Below, piece by piece: positions 619 through 60,244 of a stretch of DNA of 64,000 nt. Origin of the DNA: Mytilus edulis (taxonomy: Eukaryota). The notes beneath the pieces are model-generated. The model made no database searches. It saw nothing but the letters and a program-made list of their open reading frames with translations, and was not told the origin of the DNA. Positions within the stretch are counted from its first letter, which is position 1; every line of letters starts with the position of its first letter. The position numbers and the translations under genes were made by a program. Location of the stretch: positions 25,482,001-25,546,000 of the forward strand of contig NC_092347.1 of the NCBI RefSeq assembly GCF_963676685.1, read 5' to 3'.

Positions 619-2268
619 TTCACGATATAACAGAAGTTTTTAAGCTACAGATCAGTTTAAAATCATTCCCTACCATATGAATCAAAATAAGTTTGACTAA
701 AGTGGGTTTTTTCAATTGGAAGAAGCGTTATGAATGTTAAGACTATCGGCAGACGGAAATCATGGAATCTAGTGGCTACCAGATATGTTTCCACCTTTAG
801 CGACACAGTTGAAAAAAGTCCTATCTAGTCCTTTGCTGACTATTCATTGAATTTTACCCTTTTTAATGGCAAATGTTCTTAGTGACCTTTGAGGTGAATT
901 GTTTATTGGAAAAAAAATTAAAATTAAAATTGAAAGTGTTAAAAAAGTAAAACATTATAGTGTGGAGCTTTCCGATGATCATATAACGTGATAACAAACA
1001 ATTCGGAATTTGATATTTACGTTCTCAAAAGTGATTAGATAATGTTTCGATAGTTTAAAACAAAGAAATAAAAAAATGGATTGTCAAATTTTTTATCTGG
1101 TTATTTAAAGGAATTATAAGTCGGTTACTATAAAAACGTACATTTCAGTTTCAAAATAATCTATTATATTACATTCATGTTCGTAATATTTATATAGTTT
1201 CAGATGGTTATAGTGAGAAGATGGTAAAAGTGGTCAGGGAATCTGATAGCAGTGTTCCATTCGATCCTCAAATGTCTAAATAATTTATCCAAAGTAAGCA
1301 TCACTTGTTGGTGTCACTAAATAGGTAACGCATACAAACAGCATACTGGTGTCCCTGTTGTCACCGACAACGGCGTTCAAAACAACCTTGGTTTAAGTGA
1401 TGATGTTATCTTAGTAAAATGCAAACACATGTGTTGGTCGACGTATACAACAAATACTAGTAGTTCATACTAATCACTGTGAGCAACACTACACAAACAC
1501 GATTCATACTATTAACTATCTTGCAATCAGACGGGTTTGTTACTCCGAATGGTTTATTAAATGTAAAAATGTCCACATTAGAATTTATTTCAAGTAAGCA
1601 TCTCACGTTGGTATTGATACAAAATAAAAAAAATATTATGAATATATACAAGATTTTTTTGCACGATTCCACAACGCTGTTTCGTTTCAATTAATATACT
1701 GATTGTAGTATACGTTTATTTAAAGAAACATTAGATTTTTTTATCTTTTTGTGGACTGGTAGTTTATATTTTTGGTTCATCTCTCGTATCGTGAATTTCT
1801 GCCATTCATAACATTAAGGTTTTGAAGCAAAGACATAGTAAAACTCCGGCAATGTCCCTGAGCCACTTTCAGTATTGAAGTGGTTGAACAATTTTTTTTA
1901 ATGTAATCTTCGTTAGAAAAAGGTAGATATGAAGGCCCTTAGATTTGAATCCTCAGTTTTGAGTAATATGGTTTTATGCTTTATTCCTAGTCAAACAAGA
2001 CAGCATTGTGCCTAGTTTCTTACTGAAAAAAAAAACAACAACCAAAAATAACTTCCGTATGCATAGTTTACTACGATGCATTTATTACTACGTTAAGACC
2101 TAATGATTCTATTAACTTTCTTCTGTAACAAATTTTCTTGTATGAAGGGGGCAAGCTGCTGATGACTTAGATTTTTTAAACTTTCAATTTCAATAAATGT
2201 GAGTGATCGATAATATAAAAGTATGTTCAACTTGAACAGACTATGTTGAAATTAAATTTACATTTCAG

Positions 2269-2708
2269 GAAAGCAAGTAAAGAGAATACTTGACCAGTCA
2301 CCAGTAGCGTTTTATGCTTATTTGACAACTTCAGTGACAAGCCTTGGAAGACACCACACAATTATATTCGACCATGTGGTCACAAATGTTGGCAATGGGT
2401 ATAACAAGCATGCAGGTGATTTTATAGTTCCAGTTTCCGGTGTGTATGCCATGTCTGTTACAATCACCAGTGCGTATCGATCATGTATCTTAACGGAACT
2501 TGTTGTAAATGGAAATCCTGTTATTCCTTCAACGGTTTGTAGCAGATCAATTGACTTAGATCTATCGTCTACAAACACCGTTGTTCTTTCACTGTCACAA
2601 GGAGATACATGCTTCGTAAGAACCCATAAAGACTATGATTCATCAGGGACACTTTTATCTGAAAACTATAACAGGTCGTCATTTTCAGGCTGGAAAATAT
2701 CAGAATAA
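2269..2708 (+). CDS. C1q domain-containing protein (C1qDC), terminal coding exon encoding the globular C1q domain
   Basis: Acceptor tttacatttcAG at 2267-2268 (phase 1). The exon reads KQVKRILDQSPVAFYAYLTT...HTIIFDHVVTNVGNGYNKHAGDFIVPVSGVYAMSVT...NTVVLSLSQGDTCFV...RSSFSGWKISE*, with the hallmark gC1q motifs VAFxA, FD.V.TN.G..Y, F..P..GVY, L..GD and FSG. AATAAA at 2715-2720. Upstream signal-peptide/coiled-coil exon(s) not identified, probably before base 1. Confidence 0.93.
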
Positions 2709-5424: not shown

Positions 5425-5468
5425 GCGTCACTCATGAGTCTTTTGTAGACGAAACGCGCGTCTGGCGT
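5425..5468 (+). ncRNA. Hammerhead ribozyme copy with core mutation (CTCATGA), probably inactive
   Basis: Identical to 5788-5831 except CTGATGA>CTCATGA, which changes conserved G5. Confidence 0.85.
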
Positions 5469-5787
5469 ATATACAAAATTTAGTCCTGGTATCTATGATG
5501 AGTTTATTTACAATCACTTGGTCGATGCCACTGCTGGTGGAGATTTATTTCCCCGATGGAATCACCAGCCCAGTAGTCAGCCCTTTTTGTGCTGACATGA
5601 ATTATCATTGATATGTTTATATTTATAAATTAACTATTTACAAAATTTACAATTTTTGAAATACTAAGGCTTTTCTACCTCAGGCATAGATTACCTTAGC
5701 TGGATTTGGCAAAACGTTTTGGAATTTTGGTCCTCAATGCTCTTCAACTTCGTACTTTATTTGGCCTTTTTACCTTTTTGGATTCGA

Positions 5788-5831
5788 GCGTCACTGATGA
5801 GTCTTTTGTAGACGAAACGCGCGTCTGGCGT
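5788..5831 (+). ncRNA. Minimal type I hammerhead ribozyme, intact core
   Basis: gcgtca-CTGATGA-gtc(ttttgta)gac-GAA-acgcgcgt-C-tggcgt. Stem I gcgtca/tggcgt, stem II gtc/gac, palindromic stem III ACGCGCGT, GUC triplet. Predicted cleavage after C5825. Confidence 0.93.
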
Positions 5832-6207: not shown

Positions 6208-6304
6208 CTTTTGGATTCGAGCGTCACTGATGAGTCTTTTGTAGACGAAACGCGCATCTGGCGTATATACTAAATTTAGTCCTGGTATCTATGATAAGTT
6301 TATT
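6208..6304 (+). mobile_element. 5'-truncated retrozyme with hammerhead at 6221-6264 (stem III variant acgcgcat)
   Basis: ctttttggattcgagcgtcaCTGATGAgtcttttgtagacGAAAcgcgcatctggcgt...gataagtttatt. Confidence 0.88.
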
Positions 6305-16667: not shown

Positions 16668-16782
16668 TGTTCTTCAACTTCGTACATTATTTGGCCTTTT
16701 TAACTTTTTGGATTTGAGCGTCACTGATGAGTCTTTTGTAGACGAAACGCGCGTCTGGCGTAAATACAAAATGATGAGTTTA
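16668..16782 (+). mobile_element. Truncated retrozyme with an intact hammerhead at 16718-16761
   Basis: gcgtcaCTGATGAgtcttttgtagacGAAAcgcgcgtCtggcgt. Absent from unit B at about 29587. Confidence 0.9.
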
Positions 16783-19591: not shown

Positions 19592-19927
19592 GATCAAAAA
19601 CAGTTATAAAACCAAACAGGTACAAAGTTGAAGAGCATTGAGGACCCAAAATTCCAAAAACTTGCCAAATACGGCTGATGTAATATATTCTTTGGATAAG
19701 AAAATCCTTAGTTTTTCGAAAAATTCAATGTTTTGTAAACAGGAAATTTATAAAAATGACCATATAATTGAAATTCATGTCAACACCGAAGTGCTGACTA
19801 CTGGGCTGGTGATACCCTCGGGGACGAAACGTCTACAAGCAGTGGCATCGACCCAGTGGTTGAAATAGTTATCAAAGGTACCATGATTATTATTTAATAC
19901 GCCAGACGCGCGTTTCGTCTACAAAAC
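19592..19927 (-). mobile_element. Retrozyme monomer on the minus strand, hammerhead truncated
   Basis: acgccagacgcgcgtttcgtctacaa is the reverse complement of the hammerhead 3' half. The body is the reverse complement of 59893-60165. Confidence 0.85.
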
Positions 19928-20687
19928 TTGTCATTATAAATGATGACCGTATGTTTTAGTCTCGGTTAATGTCTTCTTTTTGGCAATCCTACTTGCATTT
20001 CTCTTTATTCGTAGATAAAAACTGAAACATCGAATAAATCACGTATCTAGACAGCATTGATTTACACAGATATGTCAAATAGGTCGTTGTCTTTTTCTGG
20101 AGTTCAGTATCCATTTAATGCTTTAAAAAAGAGTCATTCATGTATCTTATCTCATCAATAGAAGATTTGTTGTTATTACTAGATACTCATTTATTTGGTC
20201 AGTGTAATTATACTAAAGTTTTTTTTTTTTTTTTGTAAATAAAACATTTTACCCCGAATCAATTGACACAGTGTGGTTTTATTTTTCATATATCTTTCAA
20301 ATATTTTATACTGAACAGAGAAATAAACACAATTATTTCCATAAAATGGACTTTGATATTTTTTATGAATGTTAAATGCGTTTTAACAGTGAGTGAAGTT
20401 AACTCGATATTACCGATTTATGTAAATCGTTCCAAAATCAACGACATAAAATATCTTCATATGAACAATAGATAAAGAAAGATATTTGGCAAAAATGGAT
20501 GACTTTGCATGAGTGTAAATCCAGAAAAGCACTTTGGACCGGCACCAAATTTAGACATCTTTATTTGCTTGCACTAGATAGATACCGCTGATGAAGACTG
20601 TGTGTCAACGATGGTAGTGCGGCGGGATTAATTCCCTAGAAAATATGGTAGATCCTTGTCAGCCGTAAGCGGTTGAGCTAAAGAAGT

Positions 20688-20760
20688 ACTTCTATAGCTC
20701 AGTCGGTAAACGCGCTGCCTTGTAACACAGAGGTTCCGGATTCGAGTCTCGGTGTAGACA
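20688..20760 (+). pseudogene. tRNA-like sequence (degenerate; TGT/Thr-like loop), tRNA pseudogene or SINE head
   Basis: tagctcagtcggta (A box), cttgtaa loop, ggattcgagtctc (B-box-like). Acceptor and anticodon stems pair poorly. Confidence 0.55.
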
Positions 20761-22402
20761 AGCAATATTGTAATGAAATTCATTGAAGGCCATACATTGA
20801 CCTATAATGGTTTACTTTTATAAACTGTTATTTGGATGGAGAGTTTTCTCATTGGCACTCATACCACATCTTCCTATATCTATCTCCGGTTACAGTTCCA
20901 TCAACTCAACAGTCAGTGCTTCGGTATTGACATTATCTTTAACTATCAAACTTGCTTGTCTAAATTTATCCGTTTATAACTTAAAACTCCCAGCCCTCAT
21001 GTTAAGTTGACCTTTGGATGGATTTGAAACTTTAAAACAAAATTGAACCAACAAATTAGTCGGTGATCTAAGATCAAGAAATTTAAATCTGTAAACATTT
21101 CTTTCTCAATTAAACAAAAGTTCCATAAGTATTAAATCTGTATTCACTTTATGATCAATATTTTAATAGTCATTTAGGCCAGGTTAAATTTAAGTGATTT
21201 GAACGAGATTATCCCTTTACGGTTACCATGAAAATTATATCTAGGAAACAATGAAGTTGACAACTTTGTGATGTCTTTGTTTTTCTTCGGAGTTCAATAT
21301 TATCCGTACGCTTAAAATTCATCCACATTTTATCTTTTCAATCTTTGTCTATATTATATCTAAATACCAGTCACTATGAAATAGTTGTTGTTGTTTACAA
21401 GTTGAACTTTTCATTCTGATTTATCTACATGTAAAAATAGTGTTTATCTCGATTCTAATTCTTAACCGAGTTTCGGTCTTCAACAAATATTGAAAAGTAC
21501 AGTGAATTCGCCTGTTCATTATGCGATGGTGTACTTTTAAATCTTCACTTTTATAGCTGCATTTATGTGACTAGATTACAGCTTTGAAATGGTGTAAACA
21601 AAAAACAAAGACCGACCATAATCATAGTGTGTAGCTTGTTTCAAGTCATATGAAACAAGTTGCTGGTAATTGTAATGTCCTCTGTGCACGTTTTTATGAC
21701 ATTTAATACGAATCCATACTGTATTATCGAAAACAATTAAGTCATTCGTTAATTTATGATCGAATACTTTGACTGTTGAAAAAACTTTCGGATATTGAAG
21801 TTGGCTTTTACTTTCGTCGTTGTTTTTCGCCGAACATTTAACGATATATGTCGTGTTTTAAAATACTGCTGCACACGGAAACGTTATCGGCGAAGTAAGG
21901 GAAGACAATATTTCAATACCAATATATTTTCTGAAGATTTTGAAAAATTAAGGCATGTTTATCGTTAAAAGAAAATATAATATGTACACATTCTTATGAT
22001 GAAAATTATTGATTGAGTTATATAAAACATATCTATCTTTATTGTTAGATTTGAAGGATCATATGACTATGATTACATGTTCATTCGTTTGCAAATTTTA
22101 TGAATAACTCTTTTTTAAATCCAATTTCCTGTTTCATAGACATTTCTCGGTAGTAATTTGTGATTTCCGTGTGAATCTTTTATAAATTTACATCGTTCCA
22201 ATGTATGCTTTGTAAAGAAAATGATACAGAAACACTTTAACAGACAATACAGATACTGACCTAATTTTTCATCCGACATCTTGGGATGACCGTGAATACA
22301 GTTACGGTCATCAGCTTTACCCCAGTGATTATGGCACATAAACAATTTGCAAGCTTTACTGATCGAGAAATACTTTTCGACTTGTATAAGATTAGTACCG
22401 AT

Positions 22403-22750
22403 ATCATCAGCTCAGTAGTCAGTATTTCGGTACTGACATGATTTAACAAACTACTAAAAGTGTCCGTTTATAAATTTTGAAATTATTGAGAAAAAAAGGT
22501 TTCAACCCCCTGAGGCAAAGTTGGCTTGAGATGAATTTGGCTATTTATTTTAGGTATTTTGGACATATAGCTCTTCAACGGTTTCGGTACTTATACATCT
22601 TCGGATTTCAAATGCTTGGCTTTGAGCGTTCCTGATGAAGGTAAATCCAGAAAAGCGCTACGGACGCAAGAAATTAATAAACGATGAAGGTAAATCCAGA
22701 AAAGCGCTACGGACGCAAGAAATTAATAAACGTGTTGTTTTCAAAATTGT
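22403..22750 (+). mobile_element. Second retrozyme subfamily with hammerhead at 22626-22667 and a 49-bp tandem duplication
   Basis: gcgttc-CTGATGA-agg(taaat)cca-GAA-aagcgcta-C-ggacgc, stem I gcgttc/ggacgc. The body shares blocks with subfamily 1 (cagtagtcag, gacatga, gctcttcaac). 22634-22682 is repeated at 22683-22731. Empty site in unit A at about 11555. Confidence 0.8.
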
Positions 22751-31635: not shown

Positions 31636-33227
31636 TGAACGCCACTTTTAAGCGTCACTTTTGGGCTATGTCGTGGCGGCCAGTTTTTATCGCTGGAGGA
31701 AGACGGAGTAGAGTGCCCGGAGAAAACCACCAACTTTCTACACTATGAATGTTTACAAAATGAAAATGCTGACTGACTAATAGAATTTATTTAAATCCAA
31801 ACGTATGAACATTCGTCTAAACAGTTGAAATATTGGTCTAAACATGCCATTATAAATGATGTCCTTATGTTTTAGTCTCGGTTAATGTCTTCCTTTTGAC
31901 GATCCTACTTGCATTTCTCTTTATTCGTAGATAAAAAAAACTAAAACATAGAACAAATCTCGTATCTAGACGACATCGATTTACACGGAAATATCAAAAA
32001 GGTCGTTGTCATTTCGGGAGTTCAGTATCCATTTAATGCTTAAAAAGGGTCATCGATTTATCTTATCTTATCAATATGAATTTTGTTGTTATTACTAGAA
32101 ACAGTCAACTTTTTATACTTAAGCTGTTTTGGTAAATAGAAAATTTTACCACGAATCAATTGACACAATATGGTTTTATTTTTCCTATATCGTTCAACTA
32201 TTTTATATTTAACAGAAACATAAACAAAATTATTTTCATAAAGTGGACTTTGATATTTTTTATAACAGTTAAATACTTTATAAATGTTAGTGAAGTTAAC
32301 TTTGTAAGTATTGACATTACCCATTGATTTTAATCTTTCCAAAATCAACGACATAAAAAATCTTAATATCAACAATAGTTTGTTAAAAATTGGAAATTTG
32401 GCAAATGTTACAACTTCGCATGGGTGTAAATCCAGAAAAGCATTTTGAACCGGCACCAAATTTAGACATTTTTTTTTTACTTGCACTAGATAGATACCGC
32501 TGCTTAAGGACTGTATGTCTACGATGGTATTGTGACGGGATTGCTTCTATCTTCTGGCCCTCATTTTAAGTTGACCGTTTATGGATTTGAGACTTTAAGA
32601 CAACATTGGGCCAATACATTTGTGGGTGATCTAAGATCAATCAGTTTAAATCCACAAACATTTCTTTCTCAATTAAACAAAAGTTCCATAAGTATTAAAT
32701 CCATATTCACTTTATGATTAATATTTTGATAGCCATTTCGGCCAGGTTAACTTTAAGTGATTTGAACGAGGTTACCCCTATACGGTTACCATGAAAATTC
32801 TATCGGAGAAACAATGATTGACATCTTTATGATGTTTTTGTTTTTAGACGGAGATCAATATTCTCATTATGCTACCAAAAATCCATTTATATTTAATCTT
32901 TTCAATCTTTGTCTATATTATATCTTAATACCTGTCACTATAGAATTGTTGTTGTTTACAAGCTGAACTTTTCATTAAGATGAAAATAGTGTTTATCTCC
33001 ATTCTAATTCCTAGCAGAGTTTCGGTCTGGAAGAAAAGTACTACTAATTCGTCTATCATACATTATGCGGTGGTGTACTTTTACCGCTTCATGTTTGTTA
33101 TTGGATAACAGCATTGATATGGCGTAAAGAGAAAAAATGACCGACCATCATCATATTCTGTAGCTAGTTTAAAGCCGTATGTAACAAGTTACTGGTAATT
33201 GTACTGTCCTCGGTGAACGGTTTTATT

Positions 33228-33695: not shown

Positions 33696-34409
33696 TGACA
33701 TTTATAACCGTGATCCATAGTGTATGATCGACAACAATTTAGTCATTTAGTGATTGATGATCGAAAGCTTTGACTATTAAAACTTTCGGGTATAGATGCC
33801 GAAGTTAACTTTTTCATTCGTTGTTATTTTTCGTTTGCGATCGCCGAATATCTAACTTTAGATGTGTGTTTTTAAATACCGTTGCTCACGGAAAAGATAT
33901 CGGCGAAGTACGGGATGACAATATTTCAATAGCTGTACATTTCCCGAAGATTTTCATAAAATAAAGGTTTATCGTTAATAGAAAGTATAATTATGCAAAA
34001 AGTAAAATCACAAAAATACTGAACTTAGAGGAAGATCAATTGGGAAAGTCCATAATCACATGGCAAAATCAAATAACAAAACGCATCAAAAACGAATGGA
34101 CAAAAACTGTCATATTCCTGACTTGGTACAGGCATTTTCAAATGTAGAAAATGGTGGATTAAACCTGGTTCTATAGCGCTAACCCTCTCACTTTAACATA
34201 TCTTGTGACGAAAATTTTCCATTGAGTTATATAAAGCATATCCATTTTACTGTTAGATTAGAAGGATCGTATGACCACGATGACATGTTCATTCGTTTGC
34301 AAATTTTATGAATGCATATTTGGAGCAAATTAAAACTTGTGTATTTTAAAAGTACATGATAAAATGTTTTGCTTTTATTTATTTGTAATGTTTAAGAGTT
34401 TAGATGCAA

Positions 34410-35450
34410 ATAGACATCTTCTTTATATCTTGCACTGGATAGATACTGCTGATATACTGTATATCACCGATGGTATCATCAGCTTAAAAGTCAGTGCTTC
34501 GGTACTAACATGATTTTTTAACATATCTGTACCTTTCTAAATTCTCTTCGAAAATCATGGGGAATGTAAGGTGTCAACTCCCTAATCTAAAGTTGACCTT
34601 TGATAGATTTGAGACTTTAAGACAACATTGAACCAATACATCTGTCGGTGATCTAAGATCAAGCAATTTAAATCTGTAAACATTTCTTTCTCAATTTAAC
34701 AAAAGTTCTATGAGTATTAAATCTGTATTCACTTTATGATCAATATTTTAATAATCATTTAGGCCAGGAAAACTTTAAGTGATTTGAACGTAATTATCCC
34801 TATACGGTTATCACAAATTGTATCGCGGAATCAATGAAATTGACAGCCATGTGATGTCTTTGTTTTTTTTCGAAGTTTAATATTCTGCTCATGCTTAAAT
34901 TCCTTCATGTTTTATCTTTTCAATCTTTGTCTATGAATCTTCATACCTGCACTGTCACTATAAAATTGTTGATGTTTACAAGTTGAACTTTTCATTTAGA
35001 TTTATTTACATGTGAAGCTAGTGTTTATCTTGATTCTAATTCTTAACCGATTTTCGGTCTGGAGGTACACGCGATATAGGAAAGTACAATGAATTCCTCT
35101 ATACATTATGCTATGGTGTCCTTTATTGCTGCATGTATGCTACTGATTTACAGCGTTGCGATGGTGTAAAGAGAAAAAATGGCCGACCATCATATTGTGT
35201 AGCTGGTTTAAAGTTACTGGTAATTGAAATATCCTCCGTGAACGGCTTTTTGACATTTATATCGAATCCATAATGTATTATCGACAACAATTAAGTCATT
35301 CGGTGAATGATGTTCGAGAACTTTGACTGTTAAAACTTTCGGGTATTGATGCCGAAGTTGACCTTTTCATTCGTCGTTGTTTCTCATTTGCTATCGCCGA
35401 ATATATAACGTTGTCTAAGTACGGGAAGACAATATTTTAATAACAGAAAG
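34410..35450 (+). repeat. Partial third copy (unit C) of the distal ~1.3 kb of the duplicated unit
   Basis: Matches 20550-21910 and 32460-33930, e.g. gtcggtgatctaagatcaag and tgtttacaagttgaacttttcatt. 36280-36380 also matches 34280-34400. Confidence 0.85.
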
Positions 35451-42800: not shown

Positions 42801-43444
42801 GTAAGTTAGAAAGTTATATTTAATATTGAAATAGAAATAATGAAAAAAATCGGTATTTTTAATCTTTTATATAACAGTAGGCTGTTTTGTCAAGAAGGTA
42901 ATATAAAACAGGTAAAATTAAACGAACAACTTTATCCATTTGCTTACGTTTTTGCACGTCATGCAAACATCACACGTATTGATGATACGGTGGAAATTTT
43001 ATTTAATTAAGAGTATATGATAATCTTGAAGATTTGGAAACCTTAAATTAGTACAAAACTCTGTGTGCGGTATTTAACTTTCAGATAGGATAAAAATCGT
43101 TACGATGACAAGAATATTTTCCAATATAGGACACAGCTGGAAAGAGAACGAACATGTCTTAGGAGTAAAATGCTGATAATGTAAACACGACCCTTATGGT
43201 CATAGAATTTTATTTGATGACAAACTGATTATGTCGGTATAAAGGGATCAAATTTTCCAATAACGTCTTAAAGTTATCTTATGTGAGTTAAAGAGAAAGG
43301 GATATACCATAAAGGTAGATTTCATTATGATAGAAATACAAAGCAGATGAGTACATACAATTTATTTTACATTTTCATAGTAAAATAATTTAATCTATTA
43401 ATATGATATACTTTCAGTTAACGTCATTACCTCCAAGTGGAAAC

Positions 43445-44740
43445 ATGCAACCAAAGATTCCACTCATTCTGTCACGGCCACACGTGTGGTCTCATAATAC
43501 AAATTATGTTGGTGCAGTCGGCCTACACAGTGAAAATAGCTCAGCTGCACGTGCTCGAACACTCAGTATAGATAAACGTTTGAATAAAGTCATATCTGTG
43601 CTAAAAGACATGGAAAGGAAGGATATACGAAAGATTGAAAAATCTAAACGTGACATAGAGAAATCTATGTTAGTATACACTGAAAAAATGAAACAAATAA
43701 ATGCTTCTAAGCGACAAATTGCTAAATCCCCCGAACAATCAGATTCCAATAGTAGTCATTCGACATCGACTCTTGCCTCACCTGGCAGTTCTCCCGGAAG
43801 TGATAAATATTCACCTAGAACACGGAATGTGTCTCCGGTTAAGAGTCGCAGAGTGTCTCTTCCTAAAATTGGACTTAGTACACCAAGAAACATTAATAAG
43901 AGAAGACTGTCTAGTGTTTCCGACAGTGAAGCATTGCCTAATTCATTAAGTCAAAACAGATCACGATTATTGCAAGAAACCTCATCACGGTCGTTAACTT
44001 TTAGTGAAAATAAAGAATCTGATAAACCGAAGAATAAAACAGAAGATTGTGAAGATAACCATATCGAAATAAGTCCGTTTCCATTTGAATCTTTTGATTA
44101 CGGTAACTTGAAATATGGCACTGATGAAAAACCTACTATTTCGCAAAGGGATCGGCTACACAGAAAAAGAATTAACTACAGACAATTTCAAGATGAAAAA
44201 GAGTTTGAACGTCAACGTATACTTATGAAGAAAAAACAATTACCTGAGAGTGATCCTTTTGACCACAGGAAAGATATTTTACGTCAGCAGGCGGAAAATA
44301 AACGCGCTGCACTGCTTTTAGAGAAAGCAAGACAAGAAGCAGTCAAAAATAAGAAAGATGTGTGTAATTCTTTCTGTTACTCTTTTGCAATGGAAGAACT
44401 TATGAAAAAGTCTGATCCATTGGCATACATTGCTTCAGAAAAAGACTTCATATCTAAAGTAGAAGTTGATAAAAATGGTACAATTAAACAAACACTCGGT
44501 CCTGCTGTGTTGACAATCATTGGTGTTGATGAATTAAAAAATTATCAGGGAATGAGAATAAAATGGTCTGCAAAATACCGATCACATAATATAGAAGAAA
44601 ATGAACAGTCTGGAGATAGTTTTCTTCCACCAATAACAGTTGGAGGACAACAATATAATTTATCACGCGAGACCACGCGGGAGCATGAAAATCTCCATAT
44701 TCATAGACTAGATACTCAGTCAACCATATCAGTAAGTTAA
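43445..44740 (+). CDS. Uncharacterised ~431-aa Ser/Lys/Arg/Glu-rich protein with predicted coiled-coil segments
   Basis: The only long ORF (1.3 kb) in AT-rich DNA. The acceptor tactttcAG at 43416-43417 makes the track's ATG at 43403 intronic, so the likely start is aacATGc at 43445 (MQPKIPLIL...). No transposon motifs. Confidence 0.85.
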   Translation: MQPKIPLILSRPHVWSHNTNYVGAVGLHSENSSAARARTLSIDKRLNKVISVLKDMERKDIRKIEKSKRDIEKSMLVYTEKMKQINASKRQIAKSPEQSDSNSSHSTSTLASPGSSPGSDKYSPRTRNVSPVKSRRVSLPKIGLSTPRNINKRRLSSVSDSEALPNSLSQNRSRLLQETSSRSLTFSENKESDKPKNKTEDCEDNHIEISPFPFESFDYGNLKYGTDEKPTISQRDRLHRKRINYRQFQDEKEFERQRILMKKKQLPESDPFDHRKDILRQQAENKRAALLLEKARQEAVKNKKDVCNSFCYSFAMEELMKKSDPLAYIASEKDFISKVEVDKNGTIKQTLGPAVLTIIGVDELKNYQGMRIKWSAKYRSHNIEENEQSGDSFLPPITVGGQQYNLSRETTREHENLHIHRLDTQSTISVS

Positions 44741-57481: not shown

Positions 57482-58700
57482 TGCATAACTGGAAAACGAA
57501 GATCAAAACATCTTTCTTTAGGTAATGTAAAATCTAAATGTATAAAGAACTGCACTGAATCCAAAAACACGTACACTGAGGAAGATATCATCAATATGCT
57601 GGATTTGTTTTTACTGGCAACATGTTTATCCAGCCGGTATTCCAATAAAATTGAGAATGGAAATGGGGAATGTGTCAAAGAGACAACAACCCGACCAAAT
57701 AAAAAACAACAGCAGAGGGTCACCAACAGGTCTTCAATGTAGCGAGAAATTCCCGCACCCGGAGGCGTCATTCAGCTGGCCCCTAAACAAATATATACTA
57801 GTCCAGTGATAATGAACGCCATACTAATTTCCAAGTTGTACACAAGAAACTAAAATTAAAATAATACAAGACTAACAAAGGCCAGAGGCTCCTGACTTGG
57901 GACAGGCGCAAAAATGCGGCGGGGTTAAACATGTTTGTGAGATCTCAGCCCTCCCCCTATACCTCTAACCAATGTAGAAAAGTAAACGCATAACAATACG
58001 CACATTAAAATTCAGTTCAAGAGAAGTCCGAGTCTGATGTCAGAAGATGTAACCAAAGAAAATAAACAAAATGACAATAATACATAAATAACAACAGACT
58101 ACTAGCAGTTAACTGACATGCCAGCTCCAGACTTCAATTAAACTGACTGAAAGATTATGATTTCATCATATGAACATCAGGCACAATCCTTCCCGTTAGG
58201 GGTTTAGTATCATACCATCATAACATATATGAGAAGAACATAACCCGTGTCATGCCAACAACTGTTTTTAAAATAAATGTGTTTAGTTCCGATGCAAAGA
58301 CCTTATCAGTGACTCAATATTAACGCCAAAATATGCAATCTTTAATGACTTGACAACAGTATCGTAATTATATCCCTTCTTAATAAGTCTATTCAAAGGT
58401 TTTGTAAGTTTCTGAGGTGAATACTGACACCTTTGTGCTTTATAAAGAATGTATACAAGTTCTGCACTAATACTGGTCAATTTCTTTTTTTTTTAAATAT
58501 ATGAAGCAAAATTCAATAAAAAAAAATGTAAAGAAACATACTGCAAAGTTGTTCAATTTATCATTCAGATATAGTGATGTCTTGTAACTCAATTGGCCAC
58601 ATTTAAGTGGGTGTTTGCATCTCATATTTTCCATCATTATATCTAGATTTTATTTCGACATTGACACAGATAGACACCAGTACCTATGACACACTCGATA
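57482..58700 (+). mobile_element. Old PLE RT-core fragment (+) interrupted by a younger antisense PLE insertion
   Basis: Left part reads GKRRSKHLSLG...KNTYTEEDIINMLDL. Removing the insert restores ggtattccaATGtataca = GIPMYTSSALIL (cf. GIPMGTNCAPLL), followed by AKLFNLSFRYS. Confidence 0.7.
57647..58447 (-). mobile_element. Young 5'-truncated PLE-family insertion (ORF C-terminus plus 3'UTR)
   Basis: Minus-strand ORF end ILYKAQRCQYSPQKLTKPLNRLIKKGYNYDTVVKSLKIAYFGVNIESLIRSLHRN*; AAT on both sides (57644-57646, 58448-58450). Confidence 0.78.
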
Positions 58701-59892: not shown

Positions 59893-60244
59893 CACCACTG
59901 GGTCGATGCCACTGCTGGTGGACGTTTCGTCCCCGAGGGTATCACCAGCCCAGTAGTCAGCACTGCAGTGTTGACATGAATATTAATTATATGGTAATTT
60001 TTATAAATTTCCTGTTACAAAACTTTGAATTTTTCGAAAACCTAAGGATTTTCTTATTCCAGGAATAGATTACCTTAGCCGTATTTGGCACAACGTTTTA
60101 GAATTTTGGGGTCCTCATTGCTCTTTAATTTTGTACTGGTTTGGCTTTATAACTATTTTGATCTGAGCGTCACTGATGAGTCTTATGTAGACGAAACGCG
60201 CGTCTGTCTTATTAAATTATAGTCCTGGTACCTTTGATAACTAT
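59893..60244 (+). mobile_element. Retrozyme monomer with hammerhead at 60167-60210 (core intact, stem I weakened)
   Basis: gcgtcaCTGATGAgtcttatgtagacGAAAcgcgcgtCtgtctt; body collinear with 5510-5871. Confidence 0.88.

What the first reader, a model, noticed from the sequence alone, without database searches (positions are those of the whole stretch)
22403..22750. Second retrozyme subfamily with a rewired hammerhead
Seen: the same CTGATGA/GAAA core but different helices. Stem I is gcgttc/ggacgc, stem II is gg/cc closed by an apparent A-A juxtaposition, and stem III is built on a different palindrome (agcgct), with cleavage triplet position TAC here. The body is still recognisably homologous to subfamily 1. 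Decayed relatives lie at about 20505, 32420 and 34410-34620. Inference: keeping a palindrome while its sequence changes supports dimer-dependent cleavage and would make the two subfamilies incompatible as dimer partners. The atypical stem II is a non-canonical variant. This copy looks mutated (aagcgcta; a full palindrome would be aagcgctt).
Basis: partly seen in the sequence, partly recalled or inferred. Interest (0 to 1): 0.7.

Follow-up and report, generated by a model that had tools for sequence, protein, structure and literature searches.

The report
Mussel ribozyme repeat with A·A mismatch
This is a broken copy of a mussel-type repeat whose self-cutting RNA motif carries an unusual A·A mismatch in over a thousand intact copies elsewhere in the genome; the family likely cuts itself best in pairs with its own kind, a known behaviour of such repeats that is untested for this variant.

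Summary
Real. The window holds a 5'-truncated copy (22402-~22746, 94% identical) of a 350-bp tandem repeat family (F2) with a type I hammerhead motif. This copy has A at the invariant U16.1 and is likely dead. In the family, stem III is the palindrome AAGCGCUU and A10.1·A11.1 is fixed: 1,024 exact copies, against 14 and 8 with another base at either A.

F1 (ACGCGCGU) and F2 share the GCGC loop and differ in one pair, which a monomer also needs. Better evidence came from two further families: F3 (AUGCGCAU, 3,837 matches) and F4 (AUCUAGAU), whose loop changed at all four positions and stayed self-complementary. F1/F2 heterodimers would carry four core-adjacent mismatches. Dimers probably form within one tandem transcript, so this may be a by-product.

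Mussel retrozymes and palindrome-dependent dimers are published (PMC7229834, PMC4209133); the axolotl has a U·U analogue. A natural A·A was not found in my searches, but the key supplement was unreadable. Cleavage is untested. Earlier scan notes describe the same retrozyme class elsewhere in this genome, not this variant.

The parts
22402..22625 (+). 5'-truncated body of an F2 retrozyme unit, starting at about unit position 89 of 350
   Evidence: blastn 93.95% over 281 nt to a 350-bp array unit from L023
22626..22631 (+). hammerhead stem I, 5' arm (GCGUUC)
   Evidence: sequence; pairs kept with compensatory changes across four families
22632..22638 (+). core C3-U4-G5-A6-U7-G8-A9
   Evidence: sequence
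22639..22649 (+). stem II: A10.1·A11.1 mismatch (22639, 22649), two G-C pairs, UAAAU loop
   Evidence: fixed in the family: 1,024 exact copies; 14 with a non-A at 10.1; 8 with a non-A at 11.1
22650..22661 (+). G12-A13-A14-A15.1, stem III/loop palindrome and C17. Position 22660 is A here where the family has U16.1, so this copy is likely inactive
22662..22667 (+). stem I, 3' arm (GGACGC); predicted cleavage between 22661 and 22662
   Evidence: sequence; cleavage site inferred from hammerhead numbering
22684..22732 (+). exact 49-bp tandem duplicate of 22635-22683; incomplete hammerhead
22733..22746 (+). end of the 3' tail, at the family's usual end point about 32-45 nt past the cleavage site
20493..20616 (+). 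old, decayed F2-related remnant; core half lost
   Evidence: flanks shared with 32420
32393..32542 (+). local duplicate of the 20505 remnant
   Evidence: 85% identity to 20481-20629; shared flanks
34409..34611 (+). old F2-related body fragment without a hammerhead
   Evidence: 69% identity to the F2 unit; downstream flank shared with 32420
5463..5831 (+). subfamily 1 (F1) unit with a canonical hammerhead, used for comparison
   Evidence: Rfam Hammerhead_1 E=0.00034; 363-bp period

Best explanation
The locus is a 5'-truncated, likely dead copy of F2, a recently amplified 350-bp tandem repeat family whose type I hammerhead has a fixed A10.1·A11.1 mismatch and likely cleaves weakly alone and better when two neighbouring copies in one tandem transcript pair through the AAGCGCUU palindrome. 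SHOWN: family, copy number, tandem arrays, the fixed A·A, all core residues kept, compensatory changes in stems I and III, sense-biased RNA in a related sample, a fixed 3' end past the cleavage site and variable 5' ends. INFERRED from the published retrozyme cycle: arrays are transcribed, paired hammerheads cut out 350-nt monomers, a host ligase circularises them, and a borrowed Penelope-type reverse transcriptase copies the circle into new arrays. The predicted mispairing with F1, F3 and F4 is most likely a by-product of separate divergence rather than a selected barrier.
For: Copy number and arrays: 1,024 exact motifs, 1,703 with core plus stem II; arrays of up to 9 units among the first 100 matches; 24 distinct full units are 90.5-99.7% identical, and none of the 22 columns with a shared variant lies in the core, stem II or stem III; one (unit position 9) lies just 3' of stem I (units were picked on stem II, so that part is circular). 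Selection on the ribozyme: bodies are 68-72% identical between F1, F2 and F3, yet 11 core positions are invariant (P about 0.014-0.027 pairwise). On 6 distinct sequences, 98.3% of stem I/III cells pair and 6 of 10 pairs change on both sides, against 20-46% paired for slid controls. Weak monomer: stem III hairpin +4.7 kcal/mol against -10.1 as an 8-bp intermolecular helix; the monomer MFE is an alternative fold that buries the cleavage triplet (ensemble share only 0.02). Palindrome under constraint: F4 shares 29 of 30 nt of its hammerhead with F3 but has loop CUAG instead of GCGC; 16 of 256 tetraloops are self-complementary. Template runs through the cleavage site: 21 of 25 locus groups end in the T-rich tail about 32-45 nt past it, 0 of 25 reach the following hairpin, and 5' starts scatter from 1 to 301. 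Precedent: axolotl HHR_Amex2 has a 2-bp helix III and a U·U at the base of helix II, cleaves 22% in 1 h as a monomer and much better as a dimer.
Against: No cleavage was observed. RNA reads show no start or end pile at the F2 site, but none at the canonical F1 site either, so the test is uninformative. G10.1-C11.1 is the most conserved pair after A15.1-U16.1 (PMC3088659), so A·A may be very slow. A cloned mussel repeat cleaved as a single copy, and the authors state that most invertebrate motifs work as monomers. F2 is not significantly more often in arrays than F1 (15 of 62 loci vs 12 of 84, p=0.14) or F3 (p=0.67). The F3/F4 loop swap is a single event. F2's sense-to-antisense ratio is lower than F1's (about 1.9-3.2 vs 3.7-7.6). 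Read-through templates could be uncleaved multimers rather than circles.
Confidence: 0.68

Rival explanations
1. Selected insulation: co-resident families keep different stem III and stem I codes so that each RNA is processed only with its own kind.
For: Four families have four different palindromes. F2 with any other family mispairs at 2.1-1.1 and at 15.2-16.2 in both cores; helix III falls from -10.1 or -13.3 to -1.7 kcal/mol for F1/F2. F3/F4 share stem I and II almost exactly but are blocked in helix III.
Against: F1/F3 remains partly compatible (-5.7 kcal/mol, one wobble and one mismatch). Dimers most simply form in cis between identical neighbours, where insulation is not needed. Any compensatory drift in a helix gives mismatched heterodimers. 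No benefit of insulation is shown.
Confidence: 0.12
2. F2's hammerhead works adequately as a monomer, and the palindrome is an inherited loop with no present role in F2.
For: A single cloned mussel repeat cleaved at about 0.1/min. F1, F2 and F3 share GCGC, which chance allows. There is no array excess in F2.
Against: F2 has both a weaker 15.2-16.2 pair (A-U) and a mismatch at the base of stem II; the axolotl analogue needs dimers; F4 kept self-complementarity through four changes.
Confidence: 0.15
3. F2's hammerhead is inactive or nearly so, and the family spreads from uncleaved read-through transcripts or by DNA-level array expansion.
For: It lacks G10.1-C11.1; reads cross the site freely; predicted linear and circular MFE folds do not show the active structure.
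Against: Every core residue and all stem I and III pairs are kept through about 30% divergence. The older relative L083 already has A at 10.1 and 11.1 with an intact core. F1's predicted folds are also not the active one.
Confidence: 0.08

Closest known systems
Mytilus galloprovincialis non-LTR retrozymes (Cervera and de la Pena 2020, PMC7229834; parts 1-4 of 6 of the text read, supplement unreadable)
   Same: Type I hammerhead in 350-390-bp AT-rich tandem repeats, thousands of copies, several families. The host here looks like a mussel: holder runs are labelled mollusc and gill metagenome, matches fall on 14 large contigs, and the window has a C1q exon.
   Different: The paper reports two families of similar sequence; this genome has at least four. 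The main text mentions no A·A mismatch. Whether F2 is one of the two (their Figure S4) could not be seen.
Axolotl HHR_Amex2 / Rtz_353 (same paper)
   Same: Second co-resident family with a 2-bp helix III, a tetraloop and a mismatch at the base of helix II; weak as a monomer, efficient as a dimer.
   Different: The mismatch is U·U there and A·A here; F2 has only two G-C pairs in stem II; F2 activity is unmeasured.
Palindromic-loop dimeric type I hammerheads of repeats and Penelope-like elements (PMC4209133, PMC3088659, PMC6765202; passages read)
   Same: Short helix III with a palindromic loop predicted to pair between two copies; an extra nucleotide between A9 and G10.1 is common in Penelope hammerheads, which is one way to read the first A.
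   Different: Those keep G10.1-C11.1 directly before G12; F2 has a further A between the last stem II C and G12. F2 is non-coding and has no reverse transcriptase ORF.

Membership tests
Type I hammerhead ribozyme | Core C3-U4-G5-A6-N7-G8-A9, G12-A13-A14, A15.1-U16.1, H17 | tested here: met
   Met in the family (1,024 exact copies). Not met in this window's copy, which has A16.1.
Type I hammerhead ribozyme | Three helices with stem I open | tested here: met
   6-bp stem I, 2-bp stem II, 2-bp stem III; covariation in I and III
Type I hammerhead ribozyme (canonical consensus) | Watson-Crick R10.1-Y11.1 pair at the base of stem II | tested here: not met
   A·A fixed; Watson-Crick forms are rare: 5 of 14 variants at 10.1 and 2 of 8 at 11.1. 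Published active hammerheads with U·U exist, so F2 is filed as a variant.
Type I hammerhead ribozyme | Site-specific self-cleavage | not testable with these tools
   RNA-seq shows no end pile for F2 or for the canonical F1 control
Metazoan non-LTR retrozyme | Tandem repeats of 150-450 bp, GC under 50%, each with a type I hammerhead | tested here: met
   349-355-bp periods for 37 of 38 neighbour pairs; AT-rich units
Metazoan non-LTR retrozyme | Non-coding, dispersed, with retrotransposition-like ends | tested here: met
   No ORF of 100 aa or more at the locus; fixed 3' and variable 5' ends; no target-site duplication was evident by eye at this copy
Metazoan non-LTR retrozyme | Transcribed | tested here: met
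   604-1,027 reads laid in each of 3 raw RNA runs of one study, whole unit covered, biased to the ribozyme strand if the library is of the usual kind; another organism label, not the window's own sample
Metazoan non-LTR retrozyme | Accumulates as a monomeric circular RNA | tested here: inconclusive
   Reads cross the cleavage site and the unit boundary, which circles and uncleaved multimers both give
Dimer-acting hammerheads | Self-complementary stem III/loop 3 | tested here: met
   AAGCGCUU, 8 of 8 pairs in the homodimer
Dimer-acting hammerheads | Dimer cleaves faster than monomer | not testable with these tools
   Needs a bench assay

The most novel reading that the evidence does not exclude
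One mussel genome hosts at least four co-active circular-RNA parasites whose hammerheads carry family-specific pairing codes (stem III ACGCGCGU, AAGCGCUU, AUGCGCAU, AUCUAGAU, plus matching stem I changes), so that each family is cut only with its own kind: self/non-self recognition between selfish RNAs. F2 would also be the first natural, actively spreading hammerhead in which A·A replaces the G10.1-C11.1 pair and dimer formation rescues it.
Probability: 0.14. Interest if true: 0.66.

Novelty: new variant of a known kind. Interest (0 to 1): 0.38.

Why it matters
If F2 cleaves, it widens the known tolerance of the hammerhead core to an A·A at a position treated as nearly invariant, and it shows that descriptor and Rfam searches miss abundant families (Rfam missed F2, F3 and F4). 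The four families form a ready natural panel for a simple, still open test: do invertebrate retrozyme hammerheads act as monomers or dimers, and are different palindromes orthogonal? Orthogonal self-cleaving pairs would be useful for making circular RNA. The single copy in this window is an ordinary dead insertion.

Tried and rejected
Rfam: no hit on F2, F3 or F4, so a miss is not evidence against F2.

RNA end mapping: no pile at F2 or at the canonical F1 site; uninformative. A 26-31% fall in sense depth across the F2 site was matched by a 15-22% fall in antisense depth and lies where most genomic copies end, so it was not used.

Array-size test of dimer need: not significant.

Folding: z-scores of hammerhead segments were near 0 and circular monomers folded no better than mononucleotide shuffles.

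A fifth candidate family (CTGACGA...GAAAAATATTTC) was rejected: no stem I, and it lies inside a roughly 450-bp inverted-repeat element. F1 copies with loops GUAC or GAUC were not counted as evidence, since they are scattered single copies and CpG decay can give GUAC. The U-A stem III matches in F1-type copies are CpG decay; the same search exposed F3. A search for an amplified older F2 lineage ending GGACCGG gave only 2 copies.

Literature: no paper held contains five short motif strings; searches listed no title on a natural A10.1·A11.1 hammerhead or on heterodimers between retrozyme families (listings only). Lunse 2017 and one further paper on stem II were not held; Ruffner 1990 and Forster 1988 are cited only through other papers. 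PMC9901934 passages gave no value for A·A, and its two supplements were listed but not read. The supplement of PMC7229834 (Figures S4, S5) could already show F2. Look-ups of earlier scan notes by this sequence and by words found nothing.

Full report
What is at the locus. It ends a 5'-truncated repeat copy that starts at 22402 and is 94% identical over 281 nt to a 350-bp unit found in tandem arrays elsewhere in the genome. After the motif come an exact 49-bp tandem duplicate (22684-22732) and the end of the usual tail near 22746. The copy has A where the family has U16.1: 22 of 30 loci chosen on core and stem II read AGCGCTTC and none reads TAC. U16.1 is an invariant core residue (established knowledge), so this copy is very likely dead. 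The remnants at 20505, 32420 and 34410 share long flanks at 78-88% identity and are best read as one old insertion duplicated locally.

The family (F2). The intact 36-nt motif occurs 1,024 times, the reversed control 0 times; core plus stem II occurs 1,703 times. The A·A is the family state. Only 14 copies have another base at 10.1 and 8 at 11.1, and the 7 that restore a Watson-Crick pair are dispersed, not amplified. An older relative (L083) already has both A's. Among the first 100 exact matches, 53 lie in arrays of 2-9 units, and 24 distinct full units are 90.5-99.7% identical, so amplification is recent. Runs under four organism labels hold 87-90% of the unit's sampled words, and other holders are labelled mollusc or gill metagenome. 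With matches on 14 large contigs and a C1q exon in the window, the host is probably a Mytilus-type mussel (inference).

Other families in the genome. F3 (core CUGAAGA, stem II GAC/GUC) has 3,837 matches, 87 of the first 100 with stem III AUGCGCAU, and 350-bp repeats. F1, F2 and F3 bodies are 68-72% identical. F4 makes up 27 of the first 100 listed of 716 matches (control 46); it has an unrelated 534-544-bp body, 29 of 30 nt identical to F3 across stem I 5', core and stem II, and stem III AUCUAGAU.

Is the ribozyme under selection? Across F1-F4, 98.3% of cells in stems I and III and the loop palindrome pair, and 6 of 10 pairs change on both sides; slid controls give 20-46% (6 distinct sequences, related, so not a formal probability). 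Eleven core positions are invariant where 68-72% identity predicts P of about 0.014-0.027. This argues that F2's hammerhead was functional in the copies that spread, but it is not a measurement.

The dimer claim. F1 and F2 palindromes share GCGC and differ only at 15.2-16.2 (C-G vs A-U; U-A in F3). The informative case is F3 vs F4, where all four loop letters changed and stayed self-complementary (16 of 256 tetraloops are). It is one event. Energetically, F2's stem III costs +4.7 kcal/mol as a hairpin and gives -10.1 as an intermolecular helix. Against obligate dimers: a cloned mussel repeat cleaved at about 0.1/min, and F2 is not significantly more arrayed than F1 or F3. An F1/F2 heterodimer has mismatches at 2.1-1.1 and 15.2-16.2 in both cores, so poor cross-cleavage is predicted; F1/F3 is partly compatible. 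Since neighbours in a tandem transcript belong to one family, I read incompatibility as a likely by-product.

Life cycle evidence. Of 25 locus groups (30 loci, arrays merged; two groups share flanks), 21 end in a T-rich tail about 32-45 nt past the cleavage site, 1 has the tail after a 20-nt deletion, 3 lose similarity at or near the site, and 0 reach the hairpin that follows; 5' starts scatter. The template therefore runs through the cleavage site, as a circle or an uncleaved multimer would. The hairpin folds similarly in F2 and F3 and partly in F1. Earlier scan notes say it is shared with Naiad elements; I did not test that. Three raw RNA runs of one study cover the whole F2 unit with a bias to one strand; F1 depth is about 12-13 times higher, near the 11-fold copy ratio, and more strand-biased. 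Neither family shows an end pile at its cleavage site.

Comparison with the literature. PMC7229834 (parts 1-4 of 6 read; supplement unreadable; preprint passages) describes about 5,000 mussel hammerheads in two similar families within 350-390-bp repeats, expressed as circles, and an axolotl family with U·U at the base of helix II that works better as a dimer. PMC4209133, PMC3088659, PMC6765202 and PMC7761336 (passages) establish palindromic loop 3 and dimer action; PMC3088659 notes U10.1·U11.1 as surprising. PMC8557442 (passages) describes Naiads as abundant in bivalves and lacking canonical hammerheads. Searches found no natural A10.1·A11.1 and no cross-family heterodimer test, within an incomplete library and with the key supplement unseen.

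Verdict. F2 works like, and by every testable feature belongs with, the metazoan non-LTR retrozymes. Its hammerhead fails the canonical 10.1-11.1 pair and is filed as a variant. The window's copy is ordinary debris. The fresh points are the fixed A·A in a recently spreading family and a four-family panel of palindromes that makes the monomer/dimer and orthogonality questions easy to test. Interest 0.38.

Noticed in passing
L134-L153 (e.g. L136, L139); not seen in the window: Family F3: 350-bp tandem repeat with core CUGAAGA, stem II GAC/GUC and stem III AUGCGCAU; 3,837 matches; body homologous to F1 and F2; its tail is abundant among loose read ends.
   Followed up: partly
L157, L166-L171, L177-L182, L192-L197: Family F4: 534-544-bp tandem repeat with an unrelated body but an F3-like hammerhead and loop CUAG; possibly a hammerhead captured by another repeat.
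   Followed up: partly
window 20611-20770; L087-L114: A tRNA-like segment belonging to a dispersed family, often in tandem with a period of about 285 bp. ARAGORN calls no tRNA in the window and Rfam found nothing in L088.
   Followed up: partly
window 2256-2708 (+): Open frame matching Pfam C1q (E=4.8e-23), probably an exon of a C1q-domain gene.
   Followed up: partly
window 43394-44740 (+): 448-codon open frame with no Pfam match.
   Followed up: no
window 58167-58231 (-): Weak SECIS_1 match (32.3 bits, below the 35-bit threshold, E=0.017); Naiad elements of clams encode selenoproteins, link untested.
   Followed up: no
window 19900-21300, 31800-33200, 33900-35300: Old local duplications at 78-88% identity.
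   Followed up: partly
L156, L164, L184-L191: A roughly 450-bp inverted-repeat (MITE-like) family that contains a hammerhead-core-like string without stem I.
   Followed up: partly
L023:533: An F2 loop 2 variant (UAUAU) in 73 of 350 reads of run X24, suggesting an expressed sub-lineage in that sample.
   Followed up: no
window 5430-5831, 6227-6258, 16718-16761, 60167-60210: F1 hammerhead copies; those at 5788 and 16718 are intact, others have core or stem changes.
   Followed up: partly
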